From contig CP113000.1 in the NCBI GenBank assembly GCA_026625185.1, forward strand, positions 2,043,124 through 2,107,123: a DNA stretch of 64,000 nucleotides, given 5' to 3'. The notes under the pieces were generated by a model. That model made no database searches, was not told the DNA's origin, and saw only the letters and a list, made by a program, of their open reading frames with translations. How positions within the stretch are numbered: position 1 is the first letter of the stretch; each line of letters opens with the position of its first letter. Shown in pieces: positions 45,222 through 63,203 of this stretch. Made by a program: the position numbers and the translations under genes. This DNA is from Thermodesulfobacteriota bacterium. Lineage in GTDB: Bacteria > Desulfobacterota > WTBG01 > JAGOGO01.

Positions 45222-45228
45222 TTAGTTA

Positions 45229-45592: not shown

Positions 45593-45598
45593 TTAATA

Positions 45599-48343: not shown

Positions 48344-48694
48344 TTAGCTCCTGCCTACCATAATCACTCCCAGACAGATGCAAAGCACCCCCATGAGCCT
48401 TAAAAAAGAAAGATTTTCATTAAAGATCAGCCAGGAAGCAAGAACTATAAACACATAACTGAGACTGAGCATTGGATAGGCATAGCTCAAATCCACCCTT
48501 GAAAGGATAGACAGCCAAAGAAACATGGCTATGCCGTAAAGAACCAGACCCAGAAAGATATAAGGGGTGAAAATGACTTTTATCAAGCTGAGGTTTAAAC
48601 CGGCAGAGCCGGAAAGCAACATCCCCTTCTTTAACGAAACCTGTCCCACGACTCCCAGTGCCACGGCAGCGAAGATCATGAAAATATCTCTCAT
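48344..48694 (-). CDS. Small four-TM EamA/SMR-like protein (ArnE/ArnF-like flippase subunit)
   Basis: 116 aa, four hydrophobic helices, conserved Gly/Gln pattern (VVGQVSLKKGM). Confidence 0.5.
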   Translation of the reverse strand: MRDIFMIFAAVALGVVGQVSLKKGMLLSGSAGLNLSLIKVIFTPYIFLGLVLYGIAMFLWLSILSRVDLSYAYPMLSLSYVFIVLASWLIFNENLSFLRLMGVLCICLGVIMVGRS

Positions 48695-49663
48695 CTAACG
48701 TGTCTCCTTATAATTTTTTGCCCCATCACTCCTTTTAACCTGCGATATAATGTGTCATTGATAATATCACGGCTATGGCCATAAATACATCCCTGTTTGG
48801 AGGTGGAGCGACCGGGTGAAAAAATGCTATAGTAAAAAGTTGTTGATATTCTTAAAAAAATTACAATTAAAATTATATAAAATAACATAGTGGAAATTAT
48901 GAATAAAAAATAAAAGCTAATGTTAATTAGCCATTCAATTCTTTTATCGCATGCCGATAATTGTCCATAGTGTGCCAAAAATTTTCTTATTTTTTTAAAC
49001 AATTTTCTGCAAATTTTTTATTTGGGCAATTTTAAAAATAAATTTTGCAAAATAGTAAAGAAAAAAATCTAATATTTTACTTGAAATTAAACTTATTACG
49101 TATTATTATTTCAAAAAATTTCTTTTTTCAAAAAAATGGCTTTATCTTTTGGCATTATAGTTGCTTGGAAGTTGAATAAGTTCAGACAATATTGATCCTT
49201 AGGAAAAAGCCACACCAGTGGTGAGGCTGGGCCGGAAAGCCACGGGTCTTAATTAATCGAAAGATATCCGGGTTGCCAAAAAAGGTAACCGGCTATTTTT
49301 TGGTATTAATCCCCCTCACCTCAATCCTCTCCCCGGCGGGGAGAGGATTGAAAGATTTGAAGTCTATCCTGATGGGGAGAGGAAGGTAAAGTAAAAAATC
49401 CTCCAAAAGGGAGGGAAAGGCAACGTAGTAAAAGCTCTCCTCAAAGGAAGAGAAAGGGACTAAATAAGCAAGTAAATACTTTTTTGTAGTTATATAGATT
49501 AAATACCCTATTTACTAACTTGCTTCATTATGAAATAATTTTTTCAAATAACTTTTTTGAAAGGAGGAAAAGCCAAGAAAGAACATCAATAAATCATTAG
49601 AAACAAATGGGTTAAAATTTTTTTAAAACCTAATTGTTATTTTTTTATTAAAGGAGGTAACAG

Positions 49664-49837
49664 ATGGAAAAGTTAAAAAAATTTTTTAAAGAGGAGGAGG
49701 GCGTGACCGCACTTGAATACACAGTGCTCGCCGCACTTATAATTATCGTGATAATTATATTTTTTACCCCGATACGAAATGCCGTTAGTAAGATATGGTC
49801 AGAAATTAATAGTGCAATGACGGCTGCAACATCATAA
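49664..49837 (+). CDS. flp: Flp/Fap family type IVb pilin (57 aa, below the track cutoff)
   Basis: MEKLKKFFKEEEGVTALEYTVLAALIIIVIIIFF carries the Flp motif G-(V/A)-T-A-(I/L)-E-Y and a hydrophobic stretch. AAAGGAGG RBS is 6 nt upstream. Confidence 0.7.
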   Translation: MEKLKKFFKEEEGVTALEYTVLAALIIIVIIIFFTPIRNAVSKIWSEINSAMTAATS

Positions 49838-50013
49838 TCACCGGGCAATCACCCAATCATAAATAAGAAGAAATTTCTTTTCAAAACTTATGAGGGAAAC
49901 ATAATATAATTCGCCTTATAGGAAAGAGAAGAAAAATTAGTTATTGACGCGAAGCGAGGGCTTTTTATTTCGCTCCGTCCTCAATAACGAGAGAAAAAAG
50001 GAAAGCCGGTAGC

Positions 50014-50547
50014 GTGATCAGTGATGTTTATCTGTCCACATTTTTAGCCATAATTCTTTTGATTGCGGCAATATACGACATTTGGGTTGCTAAAATTCCC
50101 AATGTGATCACGTTCTCCGGTATGATAACCGGCATTATATATCATGGGGCAGCTCAGGGTTTGAGCGGGGCCGGGCTGAGTATTGCCGGCCTGCTGGCAG
50201 GGAGCGCGGTATTTTTCCCTTTTTACCTGCTGAAAGGAATGGGAGCCGGGGATATAAAGCTGATGGGAGCGGTGGGCTCCTTAGTGGCCTGGAAAGGAAT
50301 AATCCCGGCTATTGTTTTTACCGCGCTGGCCGGAGGCATTTATGCGTTTGCGCTTATTTTTTGCAATCCCAGTACCTGCAAGAGATTGATCTTTGGATCA
50401 ATATCAATGTTTAAGACTCTTGCGCTGACCGGGCAGATTGTTCTTCCCTCCTTATTTGAAAAGGAGAAAAAGCCGCAGGTGCGTTATGGGGTGGCGATCG
50501 CCGCGGGAACTTTATTTTCGCAGTGGTGGTGGCCGCTGCTTAAGTAG
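50014..50547 (+). CDS. cpaA: Prepilin peptidase CpaA/TadV (A24 family)
   Basis: Polytopic protein with conserved catalytic Asp residues (IYDIWVAKIPN and GMGAGDIKLMGAVG). Confidence 0.7.
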   Translation: MISDVYLSTFLAIILLIAAIYDIWVAKIPNVITFSGMITGIIYHGAAQGLSGAGLSIAGLLAGSAVFFPFYLLKGMGAGDIKLMGAVGSLVAWKGIIPAIVFTALAGGIYAFALIFCNPSTCKRLIFGSISMFKTLALTGQIVLPSLFEKEKKPQVRYGVAIAAGTLFSQWWWPLLK

Positions 50548-50827
50548 TTTTGGGGAACGCTCATTAATTTCTCTCCAACCAAATTTTTCCTTTTACCACC
50601 CCTTTGAAAATGGGTAGAATTGGTTTATTTCTCTTTTTTAAAGTGGAAAATCAAGTTTTCCTCTTTAATTAATGGAAAAAAAACAAATTTTTCTTGAAAT
50701 TTTTCTTGAAATAAATAAAAAACATTGTAAAATATATTTCAAATTGCTTATTTTTATCCCATGAGAAAATTTTCTAACGGCTAAAGTAAAGAAAAATTCT
50801 CATCAGATAAAGAAAGGGGTGAATCTT

Positions 50828-51673
50828 ATGGAGAGATGGAAAGCATTTTTACCGATTCTGATAGCGGTGATTATTGCCTTGATCGGGGCTTTTGCGGCCA
50901 ACAAATGGCTAAAAAAGCAGGCGATTGTAAAGGGGAAACCAACCATTGGGGAAACCGCCCAGATTGCCGTGGCCAAGGTGGATTTGCCCTGGGGAACGAA
51001 GCTGACCTCTGAAGCCTTGACCTCCGCAAGGTTTATTAAAAATAGTTTGCCCACAGGCTATTTTACTGATCTTGCTGCTCTCAACAACCGGGTGCTTCTC
51101 AGTCCGGTTAGTAGGAATGAACCTATTTTAGAATCGCGATTAGCTCCGGTCAGCATTGCTACGGGCGGCGTTTCCGCGGTTATTCCGAGCGGCAAACGGG
51201 CGATAGCGGTCAAAGGCGACAAAGTCATCGGATTATCCGGACTGATCCAGCCTGGCAACCGGGTTGATGTTCTGTTCAGCATAACCAACCCGGAGACACA
51301 AACCGAGATCACCAAAATCGTGCTTCAGGATATTCTGGTGCTGGCCGCCAACACCCAAATAGAGAAAGGCAAGAAAGAAGGCGAAGCAGCTCCGGTGGAT
51401 GTTTATACCCTCGAGGTAACACCGGAAGATGGTGAGAAGCTTGCGCTCGCCGCTACCCAGGGAAGACTTCAGTTCGCTTTAAGAAACCCCATGGATTTGG
51501 AAATGGTGGTTACCAGAGGAGCGACCATACCGGATACGCTCGGTATGTTGTATATACCCGGCAACAAAAAAAGCCCGGAACCCATGGCAACAAGAGGCCC
51601 TTCCGCTGTCCATGAGTCCGAGGTTACCATTATTAACGGCTCTAAGGCAACGGTCGTTAAACATGCGCTGTAA
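50828..51673 (+). CDS. cpaB: Flp pilus assembly protein CpaB/RcpC
   Basis: N-terminal TM anchor, then SAF-like and RcpC beta-rich domains. Position between cpaA and the secretin. Confidence 0.65.
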   Translation: MERWKAFLPILIAVIIALIGAFAANKWLKKQAIVKGKPTIGETAQIAVAKVDLPWGTKLTSEALTSARFIKNSLPTGYFTDLAALNNRVLLSPVSRNEPILESRLAPVSIATGGVSAVIPSGKRAIAVKGDKVIGLSGLIQPGNRVDVLFSITNPETQTEITKIVLQDILVLAANTQIEKGKKEGEAAPVDVYTLEVTPEDGEKLALAATQGRLQFALRNPMDLEMVVTRGATIPDTLGMLYIPGNKKSPEPMATRGPSAVHESEVTIINGSKATVVKHAL

Positions 51674-51696
51674 TTATTTAATGAGAGGGCGGAATT

Positions 51697-51977
51697 CACC
51701 CTCACCCCGGCCCTCTCCCTCAAGGGAGAGGGAGTTTTGAATTGATTCTCTCCCTCAAGGGAGAGGGAGTTTTGAATTGATTCTCTCCCTCAAGGGAGAG
51801 TGGGGTGGTTGCTTCTCTCTCCATTAAGGGAAAAAATGTTTTTTGGTTTCTTCTCTCCGTTAAAGGGGAGATAGAAATTTTGGTTTGATTCTCTCCCTTA
51901 AGGGAGAAGGAAAATTTGGAGTGGATTTTGAAACGTTACCTCCTCTCCCCTGCGGGGAGAGGATTGAGGTGAGGGGG
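51697..51977 (+). repeat. Tandem array of about 7 hairpin units (about 36 bp each: CTCTCCCTCAAGGGAGAG plus GGAGTTTTGAATTGATT). It degenerates distally and ends with an inverted copy of the CCTCACC..GGGGAGAGGA element.
   Basis: The first three units are near-identical. Read directly in the sequence between cpaB and cpaC. Confidence 0.6.
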
Positions 51978-52046
51978 CTTATCGCATCTTATTTTTGCTC
52001 TGATTAATATGTTTCCCCCCCGTAAGAAGGCACGGGGTAAAAGAAA

Positions 52047-53477
52047 GTGAGGAGAAGAATGAGGCTTACAACCACGGCAATAATGAAAGGATATGGACTC
52101 GCTTTTGTTATTCTCGCTTTGTTGCTGACCCTCTCGGGCAGAGCATTTTCTCAAACCATTATCGTGCTGGGAGATAAAAAAACGACTAAGCTTGACCTGG
52201 TCGTCGGGAAATCAGTGATATTTAAAAGCTCTCAGGAAATAAAATCCGCCAGTATCGCTGACCCGGAGATCGCGGAATGCGTTTCTCTATCTCCCAGTGA
52301 AATTTACGTTGTTGCCAAAGCTCCCGGCGCGACCCGCCTTATTATTTCCCAGGCCGGAAAGGCGATGTTTACCTATGATTTAACTGTTGCCTACGATATC
52401 GCGGGGTTGAAGCAGAAGCTCAACGAGATGTTGCCGGACGAGAATAATATTCAGGTAACGGCCACGAATAAATCCCTTACCTTGAGCGGCCGGGTTTCGA
52501 GCACGGTCAAGCTTTCTCAAGCGCTCGCGATTGCTGAGGGCTTCGCTCCCAAGGGGGGAATCAATAATCTCCTTGAGGTCGCCGGAGTACATCAGGTGAT
52601 GCTGGAAGTGCGGGTGGCGGAGATGTCAAAGAGTTTAGGTCAAAAGCTGGGTTTTAATTTTGCTTACACCAACGGGCAAGACTTCGCCCTTACCCATTTG
52701 GCACAACTTACTTCCTTCGATTCCGCGACCGCAGGCGGGCCATTGGGCATTGCGGTCTCTTCCGCGGTTAACGCCCTTTTTCGTTTTAAGAAGGGCAACT
52801 CCACCTGGACCAATTTTATTGACGCCTTAAAAGAAGACGGCTTGGTCCACGTTCTGGCGGAGCCGACCCTGATCGCTTTAAGCGGCCAGTCAGCAAACTT
52901 TCTCGCCGGAGGGGAGTTTCCGATCCCGGTTCCCCAGGGACTCGGAACGGTCGGCATTGAATATAAATCATTCGGCGTCGGCCTTACCTTCACGCCGATT
53001 GTTCTCGATGATAAAAAGATTAATATAAAGGTGTCCCCTGAGGTTTCACAGTTGGATTATTCCATCGGTATCAATATAATAGAAGGACTTCCAGTTCCCG
53101 GAATAACCACCCGGAGGGCCTCGACCACCGTAGAGCTGGGGGACGGCCAGAGCTTTGGTATTGCCGGCCTTCTGCAAGATAGCACGCGCAACGCTATTTC
53201 CAAGTATCCGTTCCTCGGAGAGATGCCGGTGCTGGGAGCTTTGTTCCGCAGCAGCGACTATCAAAGAAGTGAGACGGAGCTGATCATTATTGTTACACCG
53301 CATATTGTAAAGCCCCTTGATATGGCCAAACAGTCTTTGCCGACCGATTATTATGTGGAGCCGAACGCGTGGGAGTTTTACGGCCTGGGTCTCCTGGAAG
53401 GAAGGAGCAAGCCTTTGTCTCCGGTCGCAACCGGTGAGCTCGATGGAGAGTTCGGGCACGCGGTGCCTATGCCGTAG
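52047..53477 (+). CDS. cpaC: Tad/Flp pilus secretin CpaC/RcpA
   Basis: Signal peptide, BON-like N-domain, secretin domain (VHVLAEPTLIALSGQSANFLAGGEFPIPV..GVGLTFTP). Confidence 0.8.
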   Translation: MRRRMRLTTTAIMKGYGLAFVILALLLTLSGRAFSQTIIVLGDKKTTKLDLVVGKSVIFKSSQEIKSASIADPEIAECVSLSPSEIYVVAKAPGATRLIISQAGKAMFTYDLTVAYDIAGLKQKLNEMLPDENNIQVTATNKSLTLSGRVSSTVKLSQALAIAEGFAPKGGINNLLEVAGVHQVMLEVRVAEMSKSLGQKLGFNFAYTNGQDFALTHLAQLTSFDSATAGGPLGIAVSSAVNALFRFKKGNSTWTNFIDALKEDGLVHVLAEPTLIALSGQSANFLAGGEFPIPVPQGLGTVGIEYKSFGVGLTFTPIVLDDKKINIKVSPEVSQLDYSIGINIIEGLPVPGITTRRASTTVELGDGQSFGIAGLLQDSTRNAISKYPFLGEMPVLGALFRSSDYQRSETELIIIVTPHIVKPLDMAKQSLPTDYYVEPNAWEFYGLGLLEGRSKPLSPVATGELDGEFGHAVPMP

Positions 53478-53667
53478 GGGAAAAAGGAAGGGGATTTTCT
53501 CCTCACCCTGTCCCTCTCCCCCGAGGGGGAGAGGGGAGCTACTTTAAAAATAATCCTCCCCTTTGGTAAAGGGGAGTTAGAGGAAATTTTAACGTAAGAA
53601 TGAAACGTGACCTCAATCACGTTGTCGGATTTAATAGAATCGGCGACAAATTGTAACAAAAACGGCG

Positions 53668-53867
53668 ACAAATTAATGAAATCGGGCACAATTTCCCAGG
53701 GGTATTTTTCAGGCAACACAAAACCTGTCTGATTTTTGACTTCAAAATCAGCAGGTATTTTATCCCCACAAATTAATGAAATCGGGCACAATTTCCCAGG
53801 GGTATTTTTCAGGCAACACAAAACCTGTCTGATTTTTGACTTCAAAATCAGCAGGTATTTTATCCCC
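53668..53867 (+). repeat. Perfect 2 x 100-bp tandem direct duplication. Each unit contains the hairpin CTGATTTTTGACTTCAAAATCAG.
   Basis: Units 53668..53767 and 53768..53867 appear identical by eye. They are preceded by the partial related motif CGGCGACAAATT (twice). Confidence 0.7.
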
Positions 53868-53938
53868 AAAATTCTTATGGCCGAAGCCGATTTTTCCCCT
53901 AAAAAAACAAATTCATTAAGGCATAAAAACCTTCTTTT

Positions 53939-54697
53939 TTAAAAATTACTAATTAACAATTCTTTCCCTTCGCTGTGATTACCCCTATTTAGAGTATAAA
54001 TTGTCGATACCGGCTTAATTTTAAATCCTTTAAATATTTCCCTGATCTCCTGCGCATCATTGATACTCAGAACGAATTGCGCTTTGATTTTGGCCAGCTT
54101 ATCCGCCATCTCTTTATAATCAGGCAGTTCCATATTAAACTTATACCAGGGAGCCTTCCAATAGGGCGGATCGAGATAAAAAAAGGCCTCAGCACGATCA
54201 TAACAAACCAAAAATTTCTGGTACGGGAGATTTTCAATCGTAACCTGAGACAACCTCAAATGGACTTCTGATAACTCCTCTTCCAGCCGAAGCAGATTAA
54301 TCCCGGGTCTATGCAAGGGTCTCATCCCAAAGTTTCTACCCACCACCTTTGCGCTGAACGCGTGCCGCTGGAGATAATAATAATGGGCTGCTCGTTGGAT
54401 ATCAGTCAAACCCCCGGCAACTTGCTGCCGCTTAAAATCCTCGAACCATTCTCTCGATGATAAAATCCATTTAAATTGTTTTAAAAACTCCTCTAAATGA
54501 TGCTGTAATACACGGTAAAAGCAAATCAGATCGCTATCCAGATCATTGATAACTTCAAATTTAGAGGGTTCTTTGCGAAAAAATACCCACGCTGCCCCGG
54601 CAAAGACCTCACAGTACATTTTGTGCTCCGGGATCATCTCAATTATTGTTTTTGCCAGCTTACTTTTGCCGCCGATGTACGCTAATGGACTGTCCAC
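53939..54697 (-). CDS. dam: DNA adenine methyltransferase (Dam-like, D12 class N6-adenine MTase)
   Basis: YIGGKSKLA (motif X/I AdoMet-binding region), FAGAAWVFF, and catalytic DPPY (FYLDPPYW). Confidence 0.85.
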   Translation of the reverse strand: MDSPLAYIGGKSKLAKTIIEMIPEHKMYCEVFAGAAWVFFRKEPSKFEVINDLDSDLICFYRVLQHHLEEFLKQFKWILSSREWFEDFKRQQVAGGLTDIQRAAHYYYLQRHAFSAKVVGRNFGMRPLHRPGINLLRLEEELSEVHLRLSQVTIENLPYQKFLVCYDRAEAFFYLDPPYWKAPWYKFNMELPDYKEMADKLAKIKAQFVLSINDAQEIREIFKGFKIKPVSTIYTLNRGNHSEGKELLISNF

Positions 54698-54857
54698 TGG
54701 ACACCTCCTTGTGCAGAAAAATAACTTGTGTTATTATTCCCACACCATCTTTTCTCATCCCGATGGTGGAGAGTTTCCGCATTATGCGGACTGCGCTGGG
54801 TGGTGCCAGTGCGGCGGTGGCAGAGATCCATCACAATCTCTGCCCCGAACTTTCCTT

Positions 54858-55289
54858 TTATTTTAATGATTGATCTGATTGAGTTATAGTGGCCTGCGGC
54901 GTCGAAACCAATGGTGCAGGAGTCGCAACCGTCTGAGAATCCGGTATCACTGGAGCGGTTGCGGGAACGCCTTGAGTCTTAGCTGCCACTGCGCCATAAG
55001 CTGCCGCCGCATTCAAGATATTGGTCATAAAACCGCTCAACTGTGTGCTTGTGTCGGCATTATACGTGCCGAGTAAATCACTCCAGGTTATTACCTGGTT
55101 TACAAAAGGCGGTTTTTTGGCCGTTATATCCATTTTTGCAATCACTATTTTCCCCGTACTATCGTACTGTTCTTTGTGGATGGTCATGGTGGTACACCCA
55201 CTTGAAAAAATCAACCCCCAAACAACCAAAACAGTAATAAAATAAACACAAAACAGTTCGAACTCAAAATAATAGAATATTTTTTTCAT
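54858..55289 (-). CDS. Hypothetical secreted or lipoprotein with a Thr/Pro/Ala-rich C-terminus
   Basis: N-terminal hydrophobic helix plus SSGC lipobox-like motif. Confidence 0.3.
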   Translation of the reverse strand: MKKIFYYFEFELFCVYFITVLVVWGLIFSSGCTTMTIHKEQYDSTGKIVIAKMDITAKKPPFVNQVITWSDLLGTYNADTSTQLSGFMTNILNAAAAYGAVAAKTQGVPATAPVIPDSQTVATPAPLVSTPQATITQSDQSLK

Positions 55290-55301
55290 GCGAACTCCTT
55301 T

Positions 55302-55808
55302 CTATTTGAGCCGTACCGGCTCGTTTAAAACATCCCATTTGGCGATATCGCCCGGCCGGGGAGCGGTTTTACCTTCCACCAGCCCGGCGGCTCGATACGC
55401 CAGAAAAACAAACTCGCTGCAAAAATACCTCGTGCAATCCGCCGAGACCCGGCCAAAAATATTTTTAATTACCGAGCCAAAATCATACGGCGTGCCGACC
55501 TGATCAAGCGCCCAGGTGACGATTTGTTCACGCGCGCCACAATATTCTTTTTTGAGCGGCAGCCACCAGGCTTCACCGTCATATTTTTTAACCCTCCACG
55601 ATAAAATACGCAGCTCAATGCCTGACGCGTTGGCTTCAAGAATAAACCGGCGATCGGTCAAGCCTTTAAACTCTTCCAGCCGGATCACCAGCGAAGCGTG
55701 GCTGTAACCGCCGTAAAGCCGGATCAGGCGCGAGATCGCTCCCGTGCCCTTCCAGAGGATCACGTCTCCGGACTTGATAGCCTCACGATGTTGAGAATAA
55801 TTATTCAT
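55302..55808 (-). CDS. Permuted papain-fold (NlpC/P60 superfamily, YiiX-like) amidase, putative phage cell-wall hydrolase
   Basis: The His-containing segment (GDVILWKG..YSHASLVI) precedes the Cys segment (GTPYDF..DCTRYFCSEFV). This is the circularly permuted order. Confidence 0.45.
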   Translation of the reverse strand: MNNYSQHREAIKSGDVILWKGTGAISRLIRLYGGYSHASLVIRLEEFKGLTDRRFILEANASGIELRILSWRVKKYDGEAWWLPLKKEYCGAREQIVTWALDQVGTPYDFGSVIKNIFGRVSADCTRYFCSEFVFLAYRAAGLVEGKTAPRPGDIAKWDVLNEPVRLK

Positions 55809-56188
55809 CAGCTCGGGTCCCTGATCTCCAATATATCAAATGGATTAAGAGGACATTCTACTTCATCTATCACCGGGATATTACAGGTGCTGATTGCCTT
55901 AATCTCCGAATTTACCGAATCAGAAATTACCACATGTGTTGCCGTGTTTGTCCCGGTCCCCGTAATCGTCTGTGCCGCAACTGTCAGCTTTCTTCCACTT
56001 GTATCCCCATCGCCGATAGTATAGTCACCGTTACCGTCTCCGGTGGTCAGCGTTACTTGGCCGAGAGAAACCGCGGCTATTCCGGCATAGTTAGCAGGCT
56101 GGGCAGAACAGAGGTCGAGCTTATTACCATTGTCGGCAATGTCCGCCAATAGTAAGTCTTTTTCATCATCGGGTATTAATTTCCCCAT
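55808..56188 (-). CDS. Hypothetical Gly/Thr-rich protein (phage structural?)
   Basis: No recognised family. Lies within the tail module. Confidence 0.25.
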   Translation of the reverse strand: MGKLIPDDEKDLLLADIADNGNKLDLCSAQPANYAGIAAVSLGQVTLTTGDGNGDYTIGDGDTSGRKLTVAAQTITGTGTNTATHVVISDSVNSEIKAISTCNIPVIDEVECPLNPFDILEIRDPS

Positions 56189-56197
56189 TTTTTCTCC

Positions 56198-56716
56198 TTA
56201 TCTAAATAATATAATTCTTAGTTTAAATGGCTTAGGTTCATAAATTCCTTGAGTATTTTTCTGTCTCATCCCAGTAGCGTAAGGGACCGGTAGGTTCATT
56301 ACCTGAATGCCTAATTGAAGTTGAATTATTCTACCGCCTATTTGCGTGGTAGATTTACCGACCAATTTGTCCAGTATGTCATTTCCTAAATCATTTTTTA
56401 ATTGCACTTTCCAGCCATAGCAACCATCAACTGCCACTTCTACTTGAGAAATGTATTCACAGAATGTCCACATGGCAGTATCAACCCACTCCAAAAGAAC
56501 AGGACTATCTATCTTCTTAACCACATCGGCAGCAGAAATATTAAGAGTCCCATTTGCGTCAGGTACACAATCCCACTGTAAGCATGTCTGAGTTGGTTCT
56601 GTACCTATCATGTCAGCAGTCCTTGACCAGTAGACGGAAAGCTCCGCTGTTCCTGCTGCAAAAGTTCGTAACGCAAAAAGAAAAACGAAAACTAAAGAGA
56701 AAAATATTTTTTTCAT
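56198..56716 (-). CDS. Hypothetical secreted protein
   Basis: N-terminal signal peptide (MKKIFFSLVFVFLFALRTFAAG). Confidence 0.3.
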   Translation of the reverse strand: MKKIFFSLVFVFLFALRTFAAGTAELSVYWSRTADMIGTEPTQTCLQWDCVPDANGTLNISAADVVKKIDSPVLLEWVDTAMWTFCEYISQVEVAVDGCYGWKVQLKNDLGNDILDKLVGKSTTQIGGRIIQLQLGIQVMNLPVPYATGMRQKNTQGIYEPKPFKLRIILFR

Positions 56717-56725
56717 AAAACCCTC

Positions 56726-59110
56726 CTAAAAAACTAAAAACATTAAATAATCACCGCCACTTACTTTAGTGACAACATCACAAATCAACTCACAGATAAT
56801 TTCATCGACATTATAAATTGAGCTGGTTACCTCATCACAAACCGGCTGAATAACCATTTCATCGACGTCATTGCCGACCGAGTAGATACTATCCTTCTCA
56901 ATTTTGGGCTGACCCCATGTCCAAGTATTATTGGATGATGCTCTGGTTTTATTAAATGTGAGCATGTAAAAGTGCCCACCGAATAAAAACACCATCGGCC
57001 AAGGGCTGGTATCCGGGTCGCCGTCAAAGGTGGCGACTAAAGTAGAGATCAAAAGATTCATTCCAACATCATAGACCAATGAACTATTAGCCTTATAGGT
57101 TTGAGCGATAATCCAAAAAGTACCGTCAAAATTTTGTAGACATGTTCCCTCTGCCCTGTTATTGGTATCAATGCTAATTGAGGTAAACGAACTTAAATCT
57201 GTTGAATAAGCCAAGGCAGGCCGTTGGCTCCCTCCAGAATCCCAAGTGGTGTATGCAATTAACCATCGGGAATTTGCGCTATCGTAGGCGGACATGAGAT
57301 CGAAGGCGCCGGCCCCTCCGCTGGTTGTCGGAAGGCTTAGGGCAGACAATCCACTAACCACATTCGTGCCGGAAAGGATATCTCCGGTAGTAAATAGTTT
57401 ATGGTCAGCGGTGATTGTGGTTAAAAGTCCGTCACCCCATCGTGAAATAAACAGCCTCCTGTCACCATTGTTATGCCTTATAATATGGGCTGCATGGTCG
57501 TTCATGATTTTGCTACTTCGAGAAACCATAATTACAGCCAATTGGGTAATGGTATAGTCACCGAGATCAAGAGAGAAAACTCCGCAATATCCAGAAGGTG
57601 TGGTTTGAGATGTAAAAGAATCATAATATGACCCTGCTGGGTCAGAAGCAGTGGCAGTAAAAAGAATGGTGGTTCCATCTATATAAGGCGTACCGTCTTC
57701 ATTTGTGACAACCCGCGTATCTCTAAGCCCGACTCCCCCAAACCTGCCACATTTGAAATTTGAAAAAGCAATAGTGGATGTCCCACTGGTTTTTAAGGCA
57801 AAAAATCCCGCCATGTAGCCCGACAACGCAGTTGATCCTCTTAAATCTGTTGTCGAAGAAGCCTGTTTGCAAGCATACGTCCATCCCGATCCGGAATCGT
57901 ACCATGCACACAATGAATTCCCCACAATACTCAATCCGATTTTAAACGGAGGAGTTAATGTTATGCTGAAAGAGGCTGTCCCTGAAGAACCACTTCCCCC
58001 AAATTTCCATGTTATATGGACGTAAGTGTTATCGCTTTCATAAACAACTTTCACAAAGTTATCTGCATCCTTAATCAAAACAACCCCGGCTCGCCAGTTG
58101 GCGGAATCTCCTGAAAATGAGTCGATTTGAGCTTCTATAAATGCCTGCGGCATCGAAAAAGAACTGGTATTTTCTGCTACATAATCGCTTTGTGGTGATC
58201 CCGAAGTGGTCTGTGCAATGGTAAATTTATTGTTTGCAATAGACGTGGAACCAGCATTGTTTTCGGTAAATTTAGTGAATTGTCCGTTATCGGCGGAAAA
58301 GTTTTCAGAAAAATCATTCAAACCTGAGGGATCTGGGTCAAAATAAGTAGGAGACCCAACTACAGAAAGATTCATTGCGGTAGGAATATACCCAATCCCG
58401 GAAAATGTTCCTCCCCGAATTGCATCTATCTCAGCTATTACTAAATTTCGGTTAAACAAAACCAACTCATCAACCAGTACGGGAACGGAATTTGGGCTAT
58501 CCGTGGGATCGCAACCGATATAAAAAGAATTGCTTGACCGGACGGTAAGGGTATTGGAAAAAGTATGAGTGTAAGTTGTAGCGGTTTGAGCGGTATCATC
58601 CCAAATACGCACGACCATCTTTTTGGTTACCCCATCGAGTACCAATCCAACATGATACCACCGTCCTGTGCTTAAGGTAGCCACCACCCATTCTTCCTGT
58701 TGTTGAACGGTTCCATATCCCCAAGCGACCCTAAACTGAGTGGTCGAATTTTTAAACCCCACAAAGAGGCAACTCCCAACTCCATTCCATTCAGCATTCC
58801 CGAAAAGAAGTGGATAACCGGAGGGCGTTCCGCTGAGATAAAACCAGCAACACCCCGAAAATCTCTTTACCGTATCGCCACTTTTAAGCGGGAACCCGGC
58901 GCATTGATTTGCGCTGGAAATTGAAAGTCTATTTTTTGCAGCCGTATCATTAAGTTTGGCAGAATCTGAACCTTCCTTATAGCTGGTTGTAGAATTAACC
59001 ACCCCGGTATTTGATAGCGTGTTCGTGCTTATGGAATCTACGGTAAGGGCCCCGTTTTCCATGCGCCAAAGAGCCTTACAAAAAATATCCTGAGAAAAAT
59101 CGTTACCCAC
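56726..59110 (-). CDS. Large tail-fiber/receptor-binding-like protein with a LamG/ConA-like lectin domain
   Basis: 794 aa, Ser/Thr/Gly/Asn-rich beta composition. The N-terminal region is LamG-like (LVDELVLFNRNL). It lies adjacent to the host-specificity protein. Confidence 0.45.
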   Translation of the reverse strand: MGNDFSQDIFCKALWRMENGALTVDSISTNTLSNTGVVNSTTSYKEGSDSAKLNDTAAKNRLSISSANQCAGFPLKSGDTVKRFSGCCWFYLSGTPSGYPLLFGNAEWNGVGSCLFVGFKNSTTQFRVAWGYGTVQQQEEWVVATLSTGRWYHVGLVLDGVTKKMVVRIWDDTAQTATTYTHTFSNTLTVRSSNSFYIGCDPTDSPNSVPVLVDELVLFNRNLVIAEIDAIRGGTFSGIGYIPTAMNLSVVGSPTYFDPDPSGLNDFSENFSADNGQFTKFTENNAGSTSIANNKFTIAQTTSGSPQSDYVAENTSSFSMPQAFIEAQIDSFSGDSANWRAGVVLIKDADNFVKVVYESDNTYVHITWKFGGSGSSGTASFSITLTPPFKIGLSIVGNSLCAWYDSGSGWTYACKQASSTTDLRGSTALSGYMAGFFALKTSGTSTIAFSNFKCGRFGGVGLRDTRVVTNEDGTPYIDGTTILFTATASDPAGSYYDSFTSQTTPSGYCGVFSLDLGDYTITQLAVIMVSRSSKIMNDHAAHIIRHNNGDRRLFISRWGDGLLTTITADHKLFTTGDILSGTNVVSGLSALSLPTTSGGAGAFDLMSAYDSANSRWLIAYTTWDSGGSQRPALAYSTDLSSFTSISIDTNNRAEGTCLQNFDGTFWIIAQTYKANSSLVYDVGMNLLISTLVATFDGDPDTSPWPMVFLFGGHFYMLTFNKTRASSNNTWTWGQPKIEKDSIYSVGNDVDEMVIQPVCDEVTSSIYNVDEIICELICDVVTKVSGGDYLMFLVF

Positions 59111-59112
59111 GG

Positions 59113-59766
59113 TTAATACCCTTTATTGATCGCCACAAAATCATATTTTGAGTCCGTTCCGTTATAGACGTAACCGAGACGGTCAAGTTTATTCGCCCCG
59201 GATGATAATGTCGGCGGTGACGGCAGGTCGTCACTGCCGCGCACCTCAGCGCCGAATGTGACCGTCCGTCCTCCAGTGGCATCCTGTTTTAAAAGAAGTT
59301 GGCATTTTTGCCCATCAGCCGCGCCGGAAAAAGTAAAGGCTACCGTCGCCCGGTCGAAGGTCATTTTGCCGATCCCGCCGAGAGACCAGTCAATGGTGAC
59401 ATTGTCGGCGCAGGTAATTGTCTGCACGACTTTTTCCGGATGTTTTAGTTTCCACGCGCTGCCATTGTAATTAATTTCAACATCCTCATCCTGCACGAAT
59501 GCCCGCCAACCCTCTGCCGGTAAAAGAAAAATCCAGCCGTTATCGTAAATCGCCACGTAATTTTCTTTCCCGGCCCATGCTCCGGTGGCAGTGGCCTTGG
59601 GGATATATACCTGGCCATTGCTGGGGCTGCCCGGAGGAGCCGTTAAATCGCGGTCAATCACACATATCTGTGCCATGACTGCCAGCCGGTGATTTGCCTG
59701 GTTGTGGGTTAAATATTTCGAGGCCTGGCTTTCGACCATGTCGGTTATTTGCAAAAAATCGGTCAT
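59113..59766 (-). CDS. DUF2793-like phage tail-associated protein
   Basis: The pattern LTAPPGSPSNGQVYIP..ATGAWAGKENYVAIYDNGWIFLLPAEGWRAFVQDE is recalled as characteristic of DUF2793 proteins found in GTA/prophage tail clusters. From memory only. Confidence 0.4.
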   Translation of the reverse strand: MTDFLQITDMVESQASKYLTHNQANHRLAVMAQICVIDRDLTAPPGSPSNGQVYIPKATATGAWAGKENYVAIYDNGWIFLLPAEGWRAFVQDEDVEINYNGSAWKLKHPEKVVQTITCADNVTIDWSLGGIGKMTFDRATVAFTFSGAADGQKCQLLLKQDATGGRTVTFGAEVRGSDDLPSPPTLSSGANKLDRLGYVYNGTDSKYDFVAINKGY

Positions 59767-59822
59767 AATAAACTCATAAATAAAATGTTAGCGGTTTAAC
59801 CGGTTTAAACAGTTCAAGCGGT

Positions 59823-62800
59823 TCAAATTGTTGCTGACGCCCCATAACCCCGGTCAACGGTCGCTGAAATTTGATAGGCTATCAAATTTACCGGGCTGCC
59901 TGGGGTTATCCCGTCTGCGGTCTGCTGGGCAGCTGTATAGCTCGCCGATTCGGTAGTTGCGGTAATTGTCCGCACAACTGATCCGCTTTTGTAAATATCT
60001 ATTTTAAAAGACTTGGTTGTCTCTCCCAACGGCACATCTGAGTTGTCCCGCCATTCTCCTCCGATTCGGGTACGGCGAATCCAGGTAATAGTCAGGTTAT
60101 TGCTCCCATCCCGTGTGCCCGTAACATGACAGGGTGCATAAGGTTTTTTGCCTACCGCATCGCAGACAAACGGTATGATTTGATGATCACCCAGATCAGC
60201 ATCCGGTGGCATCACCACATAAAATCTCGTTTGTTCTATATCCTCCGATTGCAGCTTGATCCGATCGTATTTTTTCGAGTCATTCAGTATAACAAACCGC
60301 TCGCCCGTAGTATGTCCCCCGACTGCCCATTCCGTTCCCCGAAGCCCTCTCATCAGGGCTGAGATCGTCCAGCTTCCGCTCCCGTTGTCGGTCGCATTCA
60401 TAAACCGTATAATTTCATCACCCACTAAGCATAGGTTTACTCCGTTTAGTACGTCCGCTTCCGTCGCGTCCTCTAAAATAGAATCTGCATCGTAAAGTTG
60501 GATGGTAAGGGAATTTATCAGGTCAAATGATCCCACGCTCCCAACCGACCCGAGGACGGACAGACAGCGGCCAATCACAGACTCATCTTCGATGTTGCCT
60601 ACACGGTCAAAATTTCTGATGCCGTCGTTGGATTCTAATATCTTAGCCCCATACCAATAATATGAAGAGCGTGCCGCCAGGTAAAAGCCACAATCATCAT
60701 CCCGGTCATCGACCAGCGGAATATCCAAAAAATACGGATCAAGCTGACCCTTGGAATTTTTTAGACTTTCGTCTTCTTGCCCGGAAACGGATGTTTGTTC
60801 TGTTCCTGTTGCGTTGGATACGTAACAATAATCAGCATCCGGCAGGGCTTTACATTCCATCAGCAGGTTAGCTCCAATCTGGATCTCATTCAGCAGCAAC
60901 AAAAAACTATTATCTTTGTACGGAATGGTTAGCACGTCCGTGGGATCATATTTCAGGTATTTCCAGGGGATCGCGAATTCGTATTCACCCTCTTTTTGTT
61001 TCCAGGCGAGGTAAAGCATTTTTTCGGATATCTGCTTTGCCAAATCTTTGTCCATCACTACCGCAATATCTATCGTCTCTTTGTTGCGGCTGTTCATGGT
61101 GGTTGGGACGCGGGTGGAAAATTGGGTTCTGGACTCGTGGCTCTGGTCGACGTCGATGTATTTCACCTCTATGGTCTGAGGAATATCCATGTCGATCTCA
61201 CGATTGGTGAGCAGAGGTACTGGCCGGGAGTCGCCGAACACATGTGCCCCCAGTTCATCTTCATCAATCGTTCCATCGGATATTCCAGTTCGCAACGGAA
61301 ATTTTAGTTTCCAGTCGCTTTCCACCGCATCGAAAAAAAATGCGGATTGAAGGGTCTCGATGGCGCTTCTCCCGGTAGAATCACCGGTGACCGAAATCCC
61401 GTCAATATTGATGCCTGACAAATCGGAGACATCTATATCCGACGAGGTTAAAGACATCTGCTCGGCAATGTCCGTTATAATGCTTGATAAGGTAACTTTA
61501 TCGGCGCTAACTCGGTCAATGTACATCACCCAACCACTATTTGTTCCGCGCCCCCACAATGCTAACCCTTCATCATCGATAAGTAATTGAGAAGGAGTGC
61601 CCGTAAATTCCAAACTACTGCAGGTTACTTGCCGTAATATCGTGAGGGTTTTACAATCAACTTCGCACGCGTACCCGCTTTCTAAAACCAACCAAAAAAT
61701 TCCCCCCGAGCTGGGACCATTTTTAAAAGCGGCAGAGTTACCACCCCTTAAAGTAGATGAAAAATCAAGCGTGGAAATTACTGTTTTAGAATTGAGTGAG
61801 TATTTAATCAGCCGCCCGACACCACTATGTTGACCGCCGACGATGAGGAAATCATCCCCTGTTTTATTTTGGAAATAAGTTATGTAAAGAGGATATTCCA
61901 GATCGGAGGGAGAAATATCAAATTTTTCATTGCCAAAATATGGGATAAAGAGGGCATCCAATAATTCCACAACCGGCGGGATCATACAGTGTATTAAAAA
62001 CCCTCCTGTATGCCCCATTGATGGCACCCCGCAAACAGCCCAGCAATCACCATTTTTGTCCACCGCGCCCTGTAAAACCTCGCAGCCGTAACCAGTTGTC
62101 GCCGGGTTAGGAATAGGATTTAATAGATAGGTCAACCACATATCACCGTCTAAAATAAGCGTTTTGCCCCCCATAAGACTTTGCCCAAAAATAAACGGCT
62201 GCACCCCTTCAATTACGGTTCCCGATATTCCCCCTAAAATCCAAATGTAGGGCAATGATACTCCCATGTAATCGACAAATGATACGCAGTAACCACCACT
62301 GGGTTGATCTGTCCCGGCTTTATTGCCCTGATAATCAACTGTCCACCCCAGGTATTTAAAGTCTTTGCTGTACTTTACAAGGGGGACGGTCACAAAACCA
62401 TAGGCTCCAAACCCCCAGGCGTAAGCGTACCCAAAAAAATCGAAACACCAATCACCCCCTCCAATGTCACTTTCAGAAGCCGGAAAATATTTTTGAACGG
62501 ACTGATCGTAAATATCCACCACAATTACTGTTGAACCACCTATAGCATATATAATTTCCGGCATGCCCCACGGTTTAAAATATATCGCATCTGTATTCGG
62601 ATTCTCAGGCAACTCAAAAATATCCAAATCATTAACTATGTCGCCCGATGCCACCACTTCGGCCTCGACTTTAGACGGTAATTGGCTGCCAAAATCGTCT
62701 AAACGGACATTTTTAAACAACGTGTAAGCCTGGCCTCGATAAGACGGGACTTTGCCGATGCCTTCAACGCTTTCCATGTAGGGGTCAGTCTCTTGGGTTT

Positions 62801-63197
62801 GGTCTCCAAGGTAATGGGTCATGCTGTCAACTATTTTTTTTGCCACTTTTTTATTGTCGGGCATAACATTATAGACCAGCTTATCATTGAGCCAAATCCG
62901 CCGTATGGCGGTAATCGGCCCGGACCCCCATGACACCGCGAAGGTCGCATAGTAATGGTAGGTAACTGTCGTTACCCCGCCGCTGGTCTTCGATTTCTTT
63001 TTTTCCCTTAATTGATTTCCTTCCACCCATATATATTTACCCTCCCAGCGATTTGCCCCCCATCCGCGCCTAATCGGTTCCCCATACGTTTTCGCGGTTA
63101 CTCGCCGGTCTTCCAGGCGCGGGCCGTATTGTTTAACCGGCTTGTTAAAAAGCTTTCCTAAAAATGAAAGCCCTATCGCAAAAAGGAAACCCCACAT
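59823..63197 (-). CDS. Phage host-specificity / distal tail protein (Phage-tail_3 family, RcGTA g15-like)
   Basis: The N-terminus GPRLEDRRVTAKTYGEPIRRGWGANRWEGKYIWVEG...GGVTTVTYHYYATFAVSWGSGPI matches the conserved start of lambda-J-like and GTA host-specificity proteins. 1124 aa. Confidence 0.7.
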   Translation of the reverse strand: MWGFLFAIGLSFLGKLFNKPVKQYGPRLEDRRVTAKTYGEPIRRGWGANRWEGKYIWVEGNQLREKKKSKTSGGVTTVTYHYYATFAVSWGSGPITAIRRIWLNDKLVYNVMPDNKKVAKKIVDSMTHYLGDQTQETDPYMESVEGIGKVPSYRGQAYTLFKNVRLDDFGSQLPSKVEAEVVASGDIVNDLDIFELPENPNTDAIYFKPWGMPEIIYAIGGSTVIVVDIYDQSVQKYFPASESDIGGGDWCFDFFGYAYAWGFGAYGFVTVPLVKYSKDFKYLGWTVDYQGNKAGTDQPSGGYCVSFVDYMGVSLPYIWILGGISGTVIEGVQPFIFGQSLMGGKTLILDGDMWLTYLLNPIPNPATTGYGCEVLQGAVDKNGDCWAVCGVPSMGHTGGFLIHCMIPPVVELLDALFIPYFGNEKFDISPSDLEYPLYITYFQNKTGDDFLIVGGQHSGVGRLIKYSLNSKTVISTLDFSSTLRGGNSAAFKNGPSSGGIFWLVLESGYACEVDCKTLTILRQVTCSSLEFTGTPSQLLIDDEGLALWGRGTNSGWVMYIDRVSADKVTLSSIITDIAEQMSLTSSDIDVSDLSGINIDGISVTGDSTGRSAIETLQSAFFFDAVESDWKLKFPLRTGISDGTIDEDELGAHVFGDSRPVPLLTNREIDMDIPQTIEVKYIDVDQSHESRTQFSTRVPTTMNSRNKETIDIAVVMDKDLAKQISEKMLYLAWKQKEGEYEFAIPWKYLKYDPTDVLTIPYKDNSFLLLLNEIQIGANLLMECKALPDADYCYVSNATGTEQTSVSGQEDESLKNSKGQLDPYFLDIPLVDDRDDDCGFYLAARSSYYWYGAKILESNDGIRNFDRVGNIEDESVIGRCLSVLGSVGSVGSFDLINSLTIQLYDADSILEDATEADVLNGVNLCLVGDEIIRFMNATDNGSGSWTISALMRGLRGTEWAVGGHTTGERFVILNDSKKYDRIKLQSEDIEQTRFYVVMPPDADLGDHQIIPFVCDAVGKKPYAPCHVTGTRDGSNNLTITWIRRTRIGGEWRDNSDVPLGETTKSFKIDIYKSGSVVRTITATTESASYTAAQQTADGITPGSPVNLIAYQISATVDRGYGASATI

Positions 63198-63203
63198 GTA
63201 AAA

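What the first reader, a model, noticed from the sequence alone, without database searches (positions are those of the whole stretch)
49664..53940. Tad/Flp pilus locus appears truncated after the secretin and abuts a tandem repeat and a phage-like module
The genes flp, cpaA (prepilin peptidase), cpaB and cpaC (secretin) are present in canonical order. The expected downstream cpaE/tadZ, cpaF/tadA ATPase and tadB/tadC genes are absent.

Instead cpaC is followed by hairpin elements, a perfect 2 x 100-bp tandem duplication (53668..53867) with iteron-like CG(R)CGACAAATT motifs, and then oppositely oriented phage genes: Dam methylase, amidase and tail fibers. The roughly 950-bp AT-rich stretch upstream of flp (48700..49660) also looks like foreign or promoter DNA.

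This pattern suggests that a prophage or GTA-like insertion disrupted the pilus locus, or that the tad genes are split between loci.
Basis: partly seen in the sequence, partly recalled or inferred. Interest (0 to 1): 0.55.

Follow-up and report, generated by a model that had tools for sequence, protein, structure and literature searches.

The report
Mu-like prophage splits Tad pilus operon
A 40-kb transposable (Mu-like) prophage has inserted between the secretin gene and the remaining genes of an otherwise complete Tad/Flp pilus operon in the benzene-fermenting bacterium ORM2a; this is ordinary phage biology, and the "perfect tandem repeat" next to it is probably an assembly artefact.

Summary

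The cause is a ~40.3-kb Mu-like transposable siphophage. It carries MuA/MuB, Gam, GemA, a Mu portal, Gp27/36/37 and an RcGTA-like tail. Its right terminus is at window 53623 (5'-TG...CA-3' ends).

A 99.95%-identical contig without the phage shows the empty site. The far junction, seen in three assemblies, carries the same 5-bp duplication (CACGT). It runs straight into lipoprotein-tadE-tadE-tadG-cpaE-cpaF-tadB-tadC. The locus is therefore complete but split, not truncated.

The "iteron-like" motifs are phage-end repeats found at both ends and nowhere inside the phage.

The 100-bp duplication is single-copy in five other assemblies. These include the metagenomes from which this closed genome (CP113000.1) was finished, so it is probably a gap-closure artefact.

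The AT-rich stretch upstream of flp is the native leader and contains a c-di-GMP-I riboswitch.

The prophage region was already flagged in the published ORM2a supplement (genomic island 9). The finding is a new member of a known kind, of modest interest.

The parts
49199..49280 (+). c-di-GMP-I riboswitch aptamer in the leader upstream of flp
   Evidence: Rfam RF01051 scores 56.6 bits against a gathering score of 35, E=2.9e-10. The GGC variant model scores 57.6 bits.
49271..49297 (+). Terminator-like stem plus T-run overlapping the 3' end of the aptamer; likely the expression platform
   Evidence: Terminator scan: GGTTGCCAAAAAAGGTAACC followed by GGCTATTTTT. Assigning it as the expression platform is an inference.
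49664..49837 (+). flp pilin gene (WAC06564.1)
   Evidence: Pfam Flp_Fap, E=2e-8. Accession.
50014..50547 (+). cpaA/tadV prepilin peptidase (WAC06565.1)
   Evidence: Pfam Peptidase_A24, E=1.4e-17. Accession.
50819..51673 (+). cpaB/rcpC
   Evidence: Pfam RcpC, E=4e-29, plus SAF.
51713..51919 (.). Array of ~35-bp REP-like hairpin units (TCTCCC-N-GGGAGA) between cpaB and cpaC. Host repeat; copy number varies between strains.
   Evidence: TRF and regex scan. L004 has one unit fewer.
52047..53477 (+). cpaC/rcpA secretin (WAC06567.1, OS130_09910). The true start is probably 52059 or 52083.
   Evidence: Pfam Secretin, E=2.4e-43, with pil_N and BON. Gene calls of 472 and 464 aa. Locus tag.
53499..53623 (.). 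Three host hairpins in the cpaC-lipoprotein intergenic region. The phage inserted into the 3' arm of the last one.
   Evidence: Sequence and terminator-like scan. The hairpins are also present in the empty-site contig L004.
53618..53622 (.). 5-bp target-site duplication CACGT (right-junction copy)
   Evidence: Empty site ...AATCACGTTTATAAAGG. Right junction ...AATCACGT|TGTCGG. Far junction ...CCTCA|CACGTTTATAAAGG.
53623..64000 (-). Right arm of a ~40.3-kb Mu-like transposable prophage. It continues ~30 kb past the window end.
   Evidence: L057, L062, L063, L066 and L074. The prophage spans 1,187,318-1,227,642 in Ga0310376_1000001.
53623..53694 (.). Phage right-end terminus (5'-TG) with three direct GGCGACAAA-type repeats; putative transposase-binding sites
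   Evidence: The same end is joined to different host DNA in L056 and L071. The motif occurs only at the two phage ends.
53668..53867 (.). Perfect 2x100-bp tandem duplication, private to this assembly; probable gap-closure artefact
   Evidence: Single copy in L051, L052, L053, L072 and L056. It starts 5 bp from the edge (53673) of a 6.1-kb intragenomic repeat. Finishing method described in PMC10190668.
53939..54697 (-). Phage D12-class Dam methyltransferase (WAC06568.1; an identical second copy is WAC08913.1)
   Evidence: Pfam, PHROG 56, accessions.
55302..55808 (-). Phage C92 papain-like amidase
   Evidence: Pfam Peptidase_C92, E=9e-11.
56726..59110 (-). LamG-domain tail fibre (WAC06573.1; identical copy WAC08908.1)
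   Evidence: Pfam Laminin_G_3. Accessions.
59113..59766 (-). DUF2793 tail-fibre/assembly protein
   Evidence: Pfam and PHROG tail families.
59823..63197 (-). RcGTA g15-like tail/host-specificity protein (1124 aa)
   Evidence: Pfam Phage-tail_3 and Rcc01698_C. PHROG 4271, E=3e-169.
63204..64000 (-). Baseplate hub (phiJL001 Gp84_N plus BR0599). The gene is intact but runs off the window end.

Best explanation
The window comes from the closed genome of Desulfobacterota candidate ORM2a (CP113000.1). Its Tad/Flp pilus operon is complete but interrupted.

**The insertion (shown)**
- A ~40.3-kb temperate Mu-like siphophage inserted by DDE transposition.
- The insertion point is 146 bp after the cpaC stop codon and 17 bp before the start codon of the next tad gene, a small lipoprotein.
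- The event duplicated 5 bp (CACGT).
- Upstream of the phage, flp-cpaA-cpaB-cpaC remain behind their native promoter and c-di-GMP-I riboswitch leader.
- Downstream, lipoprotein-tadE-tadE-tadG-cpaE-cpaF-tadB-tadC now lie 40 kb away, next to the phage's left end.

**The repeated motif**
- Shown: the repeated CGGCGACAAATT motifs are end repeats of the phage.
- Inferred: they are transposase-binding sites.

**The duplication**
- Inferred: the perfect 100-bp tandem duplication is most likely a contig-join artefact, made where a 6.1-kb intragenomic repeat begins.

**Effect on the pilus**
- Inferred: the downstream genes lose co-transcription with cpaC. Lysogens therefore probably make fewer or no Tad pili unless a cryptic or phage promoter drives them.
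For: **Empty site**
- L004 is 99.95% identical to window 51748-53623.
- It then continues into the RBS and ATG of 'MVKRFGILVII...'.

**Right terminus**
- The right end TGTCGGATTT... is joined to cpaC DNA in five assemblies.
- In L056 and L071 the same end is joined to tRNA-Arg/pgm DNA.

**Far junction**
- L074, L075 and L077 read host ...TTTATAA[ACGTG]|TGAGGAATG....
- The host side then encodes the same lipoprotein, then TadE x2, TadG, CpaE, CpaF, TadB and TadC.
- In the window's own genome these proteins are WAC06616-06622. They follow directly after the phage proteins WAC06568-06615.

**Mu hallmarks**
- MuA with Mu-transpos_C, DDE_2 and HTH_Tnp_Mu_1.
- A MuB-like AAA protein.
- GemA, Gam and Gp27.
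- Portal_Mu with Mu_F.
- Gp36 and Gp37.
- A Ner-like protein and a putative repressor gene (no Pfam match; assigned by position).

**End repeats**
- GGCGACAAA occurs twice at each end and nowhere in the phage interior.

**Relatives**
- Relatives have contiguous, complete tad loci.

**Published annotation**
- Genomic island 9 (2,097,981-2,137,495) is flagged as a prophage in the ORM2a supplement.
Against: - The functional consequence for pilus expression is not shown. No transcript data were available.
- CpaC, TadB and TadC have no spectra listed in the published proteome table. That is weak evidence, because they are membrane proteins.
- Transposase binding to the end repeats is inferred from position only.
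- MuA is only 21-25% identical to transposases of described phages.
- About 7.6 kb of cargo lies between the left terminus and the repressor, which is unusual for Mu. The cargo comprises a proteasome-like gene, 371- and 172-aa genes, AbiV, a restriction-enzyme-like gene and a D12 methylase.
- The artefact reading of the 100-bp duplication is circumstantial. Short-read assemblers can collapse a two-copy tandem repeat.
Confidence: 0.93

Rival explanations
1. The species natively has only flp-cpaABC at this locus. The ATPase and platform genes sit at a separate conserved locus, and the phage merely landed next to a short cluster.
For: A CpaE-like gene (P0124 = WAC06794) lies ~233 kb away on the other strand. 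It sits inside an exopolysaccharide cluster with no cpaF or tadBC nearby.
Against: - That gene is a paralogue, 79% identical to the tad-locus CpaE.
- The true cpaE, cpaF, tadB and tadC lie directly beyond the phage's left end.
- The empty-site allele runs from cpaC into the lipoprotein gene that heads this second half.
- Relatives L001 and L003 have contiguous loci.
Confidence: 0.02
2. The element is a GTA-like cluster or an integrase-type prophage that entered a specific att site. The direct repeats are att or iteron elements.
For: The tail genes are RcGTA-like: DUF2460, BR0599, Rcc01698_C and DUF2793.
Against: - The phage genome is complete, with MuA/MuB transposition genes and a Mu head module.
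- No integrase was found among the major ORFs scanned.
- The termini are 5'-TG...CA-3' with a 5-bp duplication.
- A second, unrelated insertion site exists next to tRNA-Arg/pgm. There the flank begins 75 bp outside the tRNA gene.
Confidence: 0.02
3. The cpaC-phage adjacency is a misassembly or chimera of the closed MAG.
For: The genome was finished by scripted in-silico gap closure. The phage region of the window is a mosaic of the two phage copies.
Against: - The same right junction is present in L051, L052, L053 and L072.
- The same left junction is present in L074, L075 and L077.
- These loci come from several different samples and assemblies (DGG-1A, DGG0 and other JGI metagenomes; some are deposited in both NCBI and JGI).
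- The two junctions carry matching 5-bp duplications.
Confidence: 0.02
4. The 2x100-bp tandem duplication is a genuine, recent duplication in the ORM2a prophage end. It would have arisen by slippage at the ACAAATT/AAAATT microhomology, not from assembly.
For: The repeat is perfect, and a 6-of-7 microhomology lies at its boundaries. Short-read assemblers may collapse two tandem copies.
Against: - The unit is single-copy in five other assemblies. These include DGG-1A (JARDUI, IMG 3300019861) and DGG0 (JARDUJ), the data from which CP113000.1 was built.
- It starts 5 bp from the point (53673) where the full and the remnant phage copies diverge. That is exactly where contigs break.
- The genome was closed with ABySS k=96 contigs and a gap-closing script.
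Confidence: 0.3

Closest known systems
Transposable siphophages of the Mu type (Pseudomonas B3 and D3112, Rhodobacter RcapMu; named from my own knowledge). The nearest GenBank hits are Clostridium phage Villandry, Chromohalobacter YPCBV-1, Vibrio martha 12B12 and Faecalibacterium Mushu.
   Same: - MuA-type DDE transposase with a MuB-like ATPase.
- Ner-like protein and a putative repressor gene in the left arm, upstream of the transposase.
- Gam, GemA, Mu portal/F, Gp27, Gp36 and Gp37.
- 5'-TG...CA-3' termini.
- 5-bp target duplication.
- Insertion at unrelated sites.
- Non-contractile tail with RcGTA-like distal genes, as in RcapMu.
   Different: - The transposase is only 21-25% identical to any GenBank phage.
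- The host is an uncultured Desulfobacterota (class WTBG01).
- About 7.6 kb of defence-like cargo lies between the left terminus and the repressor. It includes AbiV, a D12 methylase, a restriction-enzyme-like gene and a proteasome-like gene.
- A Dam methylase, not mom, sits at the right end.
Tad/Flp (type IVc) pilus loci of Caulobacter (cpa) and Aggregatibacter (tad)
   Same: flp, cpaA/tadV, cpaB/rcpC, cpaC/rcpA, lipoprotein, tadE/F-like pseudopilins, tadG, cpaE/tadZ, cpaF/tadA, tadB and tadC occur in canonical order once the phage is removed.
   Different: - The operon is split by a 40-kb prophage.
- The leader carries a c-di-GMP-I riboswitch.
- cpaF has a locus tag slot (OS130_10185) but no protein record in CP113000.1.
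- A cpaE paralogue sits in an exopolysaccharide cluster.
Rhodobacter capsulatus gene transfer agent (RcGTA)
   Same: Homologous distal tail genes: DUF2460 (g12), BR0599 hub (g13), Rcc01698-like (g15) and DUF2793.
   Different: The element here is a complete phage with transposition, lysogeny-control and lysis genes. Its ends are mobile and defined. It is not a GTA.

Membership tests
Mu-like transposable phage | MuA-type DDE transposase | tested here: met
   740-aa protein (WAC06605.1) with Mu-transpos_C (E=3.6e-16), DDE_2 and HTH_Tnp_Mu_1. Accession.
Mu-like transposable phage | MuB-like ATPase next to the transposase | tested here: met
   229-aa AAA_22/TniB-like protein immediately downstream of MuA.
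Mu-like transposable phage | Termini 5'-TG...CA-3' with repeated end sites | tested here: met
   - Left end TGAGGAATG..., right end ...AAATCCGACA.
- 14 of 21 terminal bases match as an inverted repeat.
- GGCGACAAA occurs twice at each end and not inside the phage.
Mu-like transposable phage | 5-bp target-site duplication | tested here: met
   CACGT is present once in the empty site (L004) and on both sides of the prophage.
Mu-like transposable phage | Insertion at unrelated sites, with no integrase or att | tested here: met
   - Two sites: the tad operon, and tRNA-Arg/pgm (L056, L071).
- No integrase domain was found in the ORFs scanned.
- Not every small ORF was scanned.
Mu-like transposable phage | Mu-type head and early genes | tested here: met
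   Portal_Mu (E=2e-109) with Mu_F, Gp27, Gp36, Gp37, Gam and GemA.
Mu-like transposable phage | Replicative transposition and headful packaging with host flanks | not testable with these tools
   Needs virion DNA or raw reads.
Tad/Flp pilus system | Flp pilin, prepilin peptidase, CpaB and secretin | tested here: met
   Pfam matches.
Tad/Flp pilus system | CpaE/TadZ, CpaF/TadA ATPase and TadB/TadC platform | tested here: met
   - All are present beyond the prophage in L074.
- CpaF is 85% identical to that of L003.
- In CP113000.1, CpaE, TadB and TadC have accessions, but cpaF has none. It is inferred to be called a pseudogene there.
Tad/Flp pilus system | Single contiguous operon | tested here: not met
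   The operon is split by 40.3 kb of prophage in this genome. It is contiguous in the empty-site allele as far as that contig reaches, and in relatives.
c-di-GMP-I riboswitch (RF01051) | Score above the Rfam gathering threshold over the full model | tested here: met
   56.6 bits against 35, model positions 1-87.
Gene transfer agent | Head-tail cluster lacking replication, lysogeny and mobility genes | tested here: not met
   A full phage gene set with transposase and a putative repressor is present.
Iteron-type replication origin | Iterons next to a rep gene | tested here: not met
   There is no rep gene. The motifs sit at both transposon ends.

The most novel reading that the evidence does not exclude
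The insertion is a recent, still polymorphic event. Lysogen and empty-site alleles differ by 1 base in 1.9 kb. It may act as a phage-mediated off-switch for Tad pili in the benzene-fermenting syntroph ORM2a. That would change how cells attach to partners (methanogens, Ca. Nealsonbacteria) in the consortium. The phage would also be the first defined transposable phage of this uncultured Desulfobacterota class, with ends and transposase known well enough to build a transposition tool.
Probability: 0.15. Interest if true: 0.5.

Novelty: new member of a known kind. Interest (0 to 1): 0.3.

Why it matters
- **Annotation.** It corrects how this genome should be read. The Tad pilus system of ORM2a is genetically complete apart from the interruption, so the "truncated" locus is not evidence of loss.
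- **Phage.** It defines to the base pair an apparently intact Mu-like phage of a key uncultured anaerobic benzene degrader. Such phages mutate their hosts by near-random insertion.
- **Likely errors in CP113000.1.** It flags a 100-bp duplication, a mosaic phage segment and possibly the cpaF pseudogene call.
- **Regulation.** The c-di-GMP riboswitch gives a testable regulatory input for the pilus.

Tried and rejected
- **Genome-contig scan.** A scan with the CpaF of L003 found only distant relatives (best 69%) and not the source genome.
- **Exact DNA pattern.** The empty-site downstream sequence gave no hits in metagenome contigs or viral contigs. The relevant samples are evidently not in those collections. 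The phage-side 223-aa gene also found only a 63% relative there.
- **Exact look-ups.** Look-ups of the 1124-aa, 239-aa and CpaB ORFs failed. The causes were start-codon or sequence differences and an ORF that runs off the window.
- **Walking the IMG/VR provirus.** Walking along it did not reach the left end, because the provirus call stops at a gene boundary.
- **Chimeric query.** A query combining the 223-aa protein with the CpaF N-terminus wasted the last homologue search, because the proteasome-like family is large.
- **CpaE lead.** The CpaE search first pointed to a gene 233 kb away in an exopolysaccharide cluster. This briefly suggested a split locus or a Mu-mediated inversion.
- **Inversion idea.** It seemed stronger when Dam and the fibre proved to have two identical copies in inverted order. 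It was rejected for two reasons. The second copy is a 9.6-kb left-truncated remnant at pgm, with IS1595, PIN and HNH genes inserted in its end. The real far junction is a simple insertion.
- **L070.** This ORM2b-like contig (88% CpaC) has an uninformative downstream sequence.
Full report
**1. Observation**

The described features are all present at the stated coordinates.
- Pfam confirms Flp (49664-49837), the A24 prepilin peptidase (50014-50547), RcpC/CpaB (50819-51673) and a secretin with pil_N and BON domains (52047-53477).
- It also confirms, on the minus strand, a D12 Dam methylase (53939-54697), a C92 amidase and a LamG fibre.
- PHROGs and Pfam identify RcGTA-like tail genes up to the window end.
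- No CpaE, CpaF, TadB or TadC ORF is present anywhere in the window.
- TRF finds a period-100, 2.1-copy repeat at 53668-53873. The identity S[i]=S[i+100] is exact for 53668-53768.
- CGGCGACAAATT occurs exactly at 53641 and 53663.

**2. What relatives look like**

Contigs whose CpaC is 71-74% identical (L001, L003) carry one contiguous locus. Its order is flp-cpaA-cpaB-cpaC-small ORF-(tadE/tadG)-cpaE-cpaF-tadB-tadC-TPR. The arrangement in the window is therefore derived.

**3. The empty site and the right terminus**

L004 is a 2,367-bp contig from another metagenome.
- It is 99.95% identical to window 51748-53623 and then diverges.
- Beyond that point it reads TTATAAAGGAGGAAAGA-ATG-GTT-AAA-CGA..., the ribosome-binding site and start of the next gene.

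From 53623 the window instead reads TGTCGGATTTAATAGAATCGGCGACAAATT....
- The same end sequence, up to exactly this base, is joined to unrelated host DNA in IMG/VR contig 3300015266_000013 (L056) and in JARDUJ010000050.1 (L071).
- That host DNA carries tRNA-Arg(CCG) and phosphoglucomutase.

This fixes the mobile element's terminus at 53623 and shows that it can sit at different sites.

**4. What the element is**

I walked along IMG/VR provirus 3300028916_000081 (L057, L062, L063, L066). It contains:
- DUF2460, a BR0599 hub, a tape-measure protein, a tail tube, Mu Gp37 and Gp36, capsid and cement proteins;
- a Mu portal fused to Mu F, terminase, Gp27 and an SLT lysin;
- Gam and GemA;
- a MuB-like AAA protein and a 740-aa MuA (Mu-transpos_C, DDE_2, HTH_Tnp_Mu_1);
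- a Ner-like protein and a leftward gene at the repressor position, with no Pfam match.

This is a Mu-type transposable siphophage with an RcGTA-like tail. Its transposase is only 21-25% identical to those of phages in GenBank.

**5. The far junction**

The left end was not in the provirus contig. It was reached through the 223-aa phage-side protein (P0413).

In L074, L075 and L077, written in phage orientation, the sequence reads ...CCTCCTTTATAA[ACGTG]|TGAGGAATGTAACATAATAGG.... The three sequences line up as follows:
- Empty site: AATCACGTTTATAAAGG.
- Right junction: AATCACGT|TGTCGG.
- Left junction: CCTCA|CACGTTTATAAAGG.

This is a 5-bp target duplication (CACGT) flanking an element with 5'-TG...CA-3' ends. 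The prophage is 40,325 bp in Ga0310376_1000001 (my calculation).

Immediately beyond the left end lie:
- the 100-aa lipoprotein 'MVKRFGILVII...', the same gene that follows cpaC in L004 and the orthologue of the small ORF after cpaC in L003;
- two TadE-like genes and TadG;
- CpaE (383 aa), CpaF (445 aa, 85% identical to L003), TadB and TadC.

**6. The window's own genome**

Exact-sequence look-ups tie this to the closed genome (3.30 Mb).
- Flp is WAC06564, CpaA WAC06565, Dam WAC06568, MuA WAC06605 and the 223-aa protein WAC06615.
- The lipoprotein is WAC06616 (OS130_10160). TadE x2 are 06617 and 06618, TadG 06619, CpaE 06620, TadB 06621 (OS130_10190) and TadC 06622.
- The genome is Desulfobacterota candidate ORM2a, CP113000.1, from the DGG-B/OR methanogenic benzene-degrading consortium.
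- Its published supplement already lists genomic island 9 (2,097,981-2,137,495) as a predicted prophage. From the MuA coordinates in that supplement I infer prophage limits of about 2,096,746-2,137,170.
- The paper's main text does not mention phage or pili.
- CpaE and TadB have consecutive accessions, and one locus tag (OS130_10185) is skipped between them. cpaF therefore appears to be called a pseudogene in CP113000.1. It is intact in the JGI and JARDUJ assemblies. This is an inference; I could not see that sequence.

**7. The "iterons"**

The 9-mer GGCGACAAA occurs:
- twice in the right end (plus a degenerate third copy);
- twice in the left end, once in each orientation;
- not at all in the ~40 kb of phage interior;
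- only once elsewhere in the window.

The terminal 21 bases match at 14 of 21 positions as an inverted repeat. These are end repeats, most plausibly transposase-binding sites. That last step is inferred by analogy with the L1-L3 and R1-R3 sites of Mu.

**8. The 2x100-bp duplication**

- The unit is single-copy in L051, L052 (JARDUI, DGG-1A), L053 (IMG 3300019861, DGG-1A), L072 (JARDUJ, DGG0) and L056.
- The genome holds a second, defective phage copy at pgm.
  - It is truncated on the left inside the hub gene.
  - An IS1595/PIN/HNH insertion with an 8-bp duplication sits at window-equivalent 53673-53680.
  - It is nearly identical to the full copy from 53673 to ~59770.
- The duplication starts 5 bp from that repeat boundary.
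- Within the repeat, the window sequence follows the remnant copy rather than the other assemblies' full copy in patches at 58250-59250.
- CP113000.1 was closed by mapping ABySS (k=96) contigs and running a gap-closing script.

I therefore rate an assembly artefact at about 0.7 and a real private duplication at about 0.3.

**9. The AT-rich stretch**

- 48691-49002 is a 103-aa minus-strand ORF. It overlaps the EamA gene start and is called as a gene in L055.
- The remainder is the divergent promoter and leader region.
- It holds a c-di-GMP-I riboswitch at 49199-49280 (56.6 bits against a gathering score of 35). A terminator-like stem and T-run overlap its 3' end.
- REP-like TCTCCC-N-GGGAGA hairpins are also present. 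They recur between the tad genes.
- The region is 99.9% conserved in contig L055, which comes from the same sample as the empty-site contig. It is native, not foreign.

**10. Mechanism and consequence**

*Shown*
- A simple transposition insertion splits the operon.
- The allele is polymorphic among near-identical strains.

*Inferred*
- Only 22 bp of native sequence now precede the lipoprotein gene's start codon.
- No promoter-like site was found on the plus strand in the 146 bp that used to precede it.
- The eight downstream genes therefore probably depended on read-through from cpaC and are now poorly expressed.
- CpaC, TadB and TadC have no spectra in the published transporter table. This is weak evidence.

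**11. Verdict**

The biology is ordinary: a Mu-like prophage inserted in an operon. The prophage region was already flagged in a published supplement. The base-pair definition, the empty site, the riboswitch and the probable assembly errors are the added value.

Noticed in passing
window 49199-49297: A c-di-GMP-I riboswitch (RF01051, 56.6 bits) with an overlapping terminator-like stem lies ~370 nt upstream of flp. This suggests c-di-GMP control of Tad pilin expression.
   Followed up: partly
L067 10001-11152 (Ga0310376_1000001, ~233 kb from cpaC; WAC06794.1): A second cpaE paralogue, 79% identical to the tad-locus CpaE, sits alone inside an exopolysaccharide cluster (Wzz, Wzy, Poly_export). 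It is followed by a response-regulator-HD gene and small MshEN-domain fragments.
   Followed up: partly
L071 1278-13915 (JARDUJ010000050.1); in CP113000.1 the proteins WAC08908-08913: - A second, defective copy of a related phage lies next to tRNA-Arg/pgm.
- It is truncated on the left inside the hub gene, against an Eco57I-type methylase gene.
- A 2.9-kb insertion (IS1595 transposase, PIN, HNH) sits in the phage's right-end repeats, with an 8-bp duplication.
   Followed up: partly
window 58250-59500 and 62000-62750: All ~90-110 differences between the window's phage and the same prophage in other assemblies cluster in two patches: fibre N-terminus/DUF2793, and the 1124-aa tail gene. In the first patch the window matches the remnant copy. 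This indicates gene conversion or a chimeric consensus in the closed genome.
   Followed up: partly
CP113000.1 locus tag OS130_10185 (outside the window; equals L074 3422-4759): cpaF has no protein accession between CpaE (WAC06620) and TadB (WAC06621) in the closed genome. It is an intact 445-aa ORF in the JGI and JARDUJ assemblies. It is probably a pseudogene call or an assembly error.
   Followed up: partly
L074 10001-15623 (phage left arm): About 7.6 kb of defence-like cargo lies between the phage's left terminus and its repressor. It comprises a proteasome-like Ntn hydrolase (223 aa), 61-, 371- and 172-aa genes, AbiV (HEPN), a SacI-like restriction enzyme and a D12 methylase.
   Followed up: no
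window 47369, 49328, 49436, 51713-51960, 53515: A family of REP-like palindromes (TCTCCC-N2-8-GGGAGA) is concentrated in the intergenic regions of the tad locus. It includes a 35-bp tandem array between cpaB and cpaC whose copy number differs from L004.
   Followed up: partly
L070 1139-2560 (Ga0183122_103686, probably ORM2b-like): In this 88%-identical relative, cpaC is called as two ORFs (111 aa and 357 aa). This could be a frameshifted secretin gene.
   Followed up: no
window 40115-40857: A MazE/AbrB-type antitoxin and PIN-like toxin pair, and further upstream a cluster of large membrane glycosyltransferase-like genes with no Pfam match (43260-47122).
   Followed up: no
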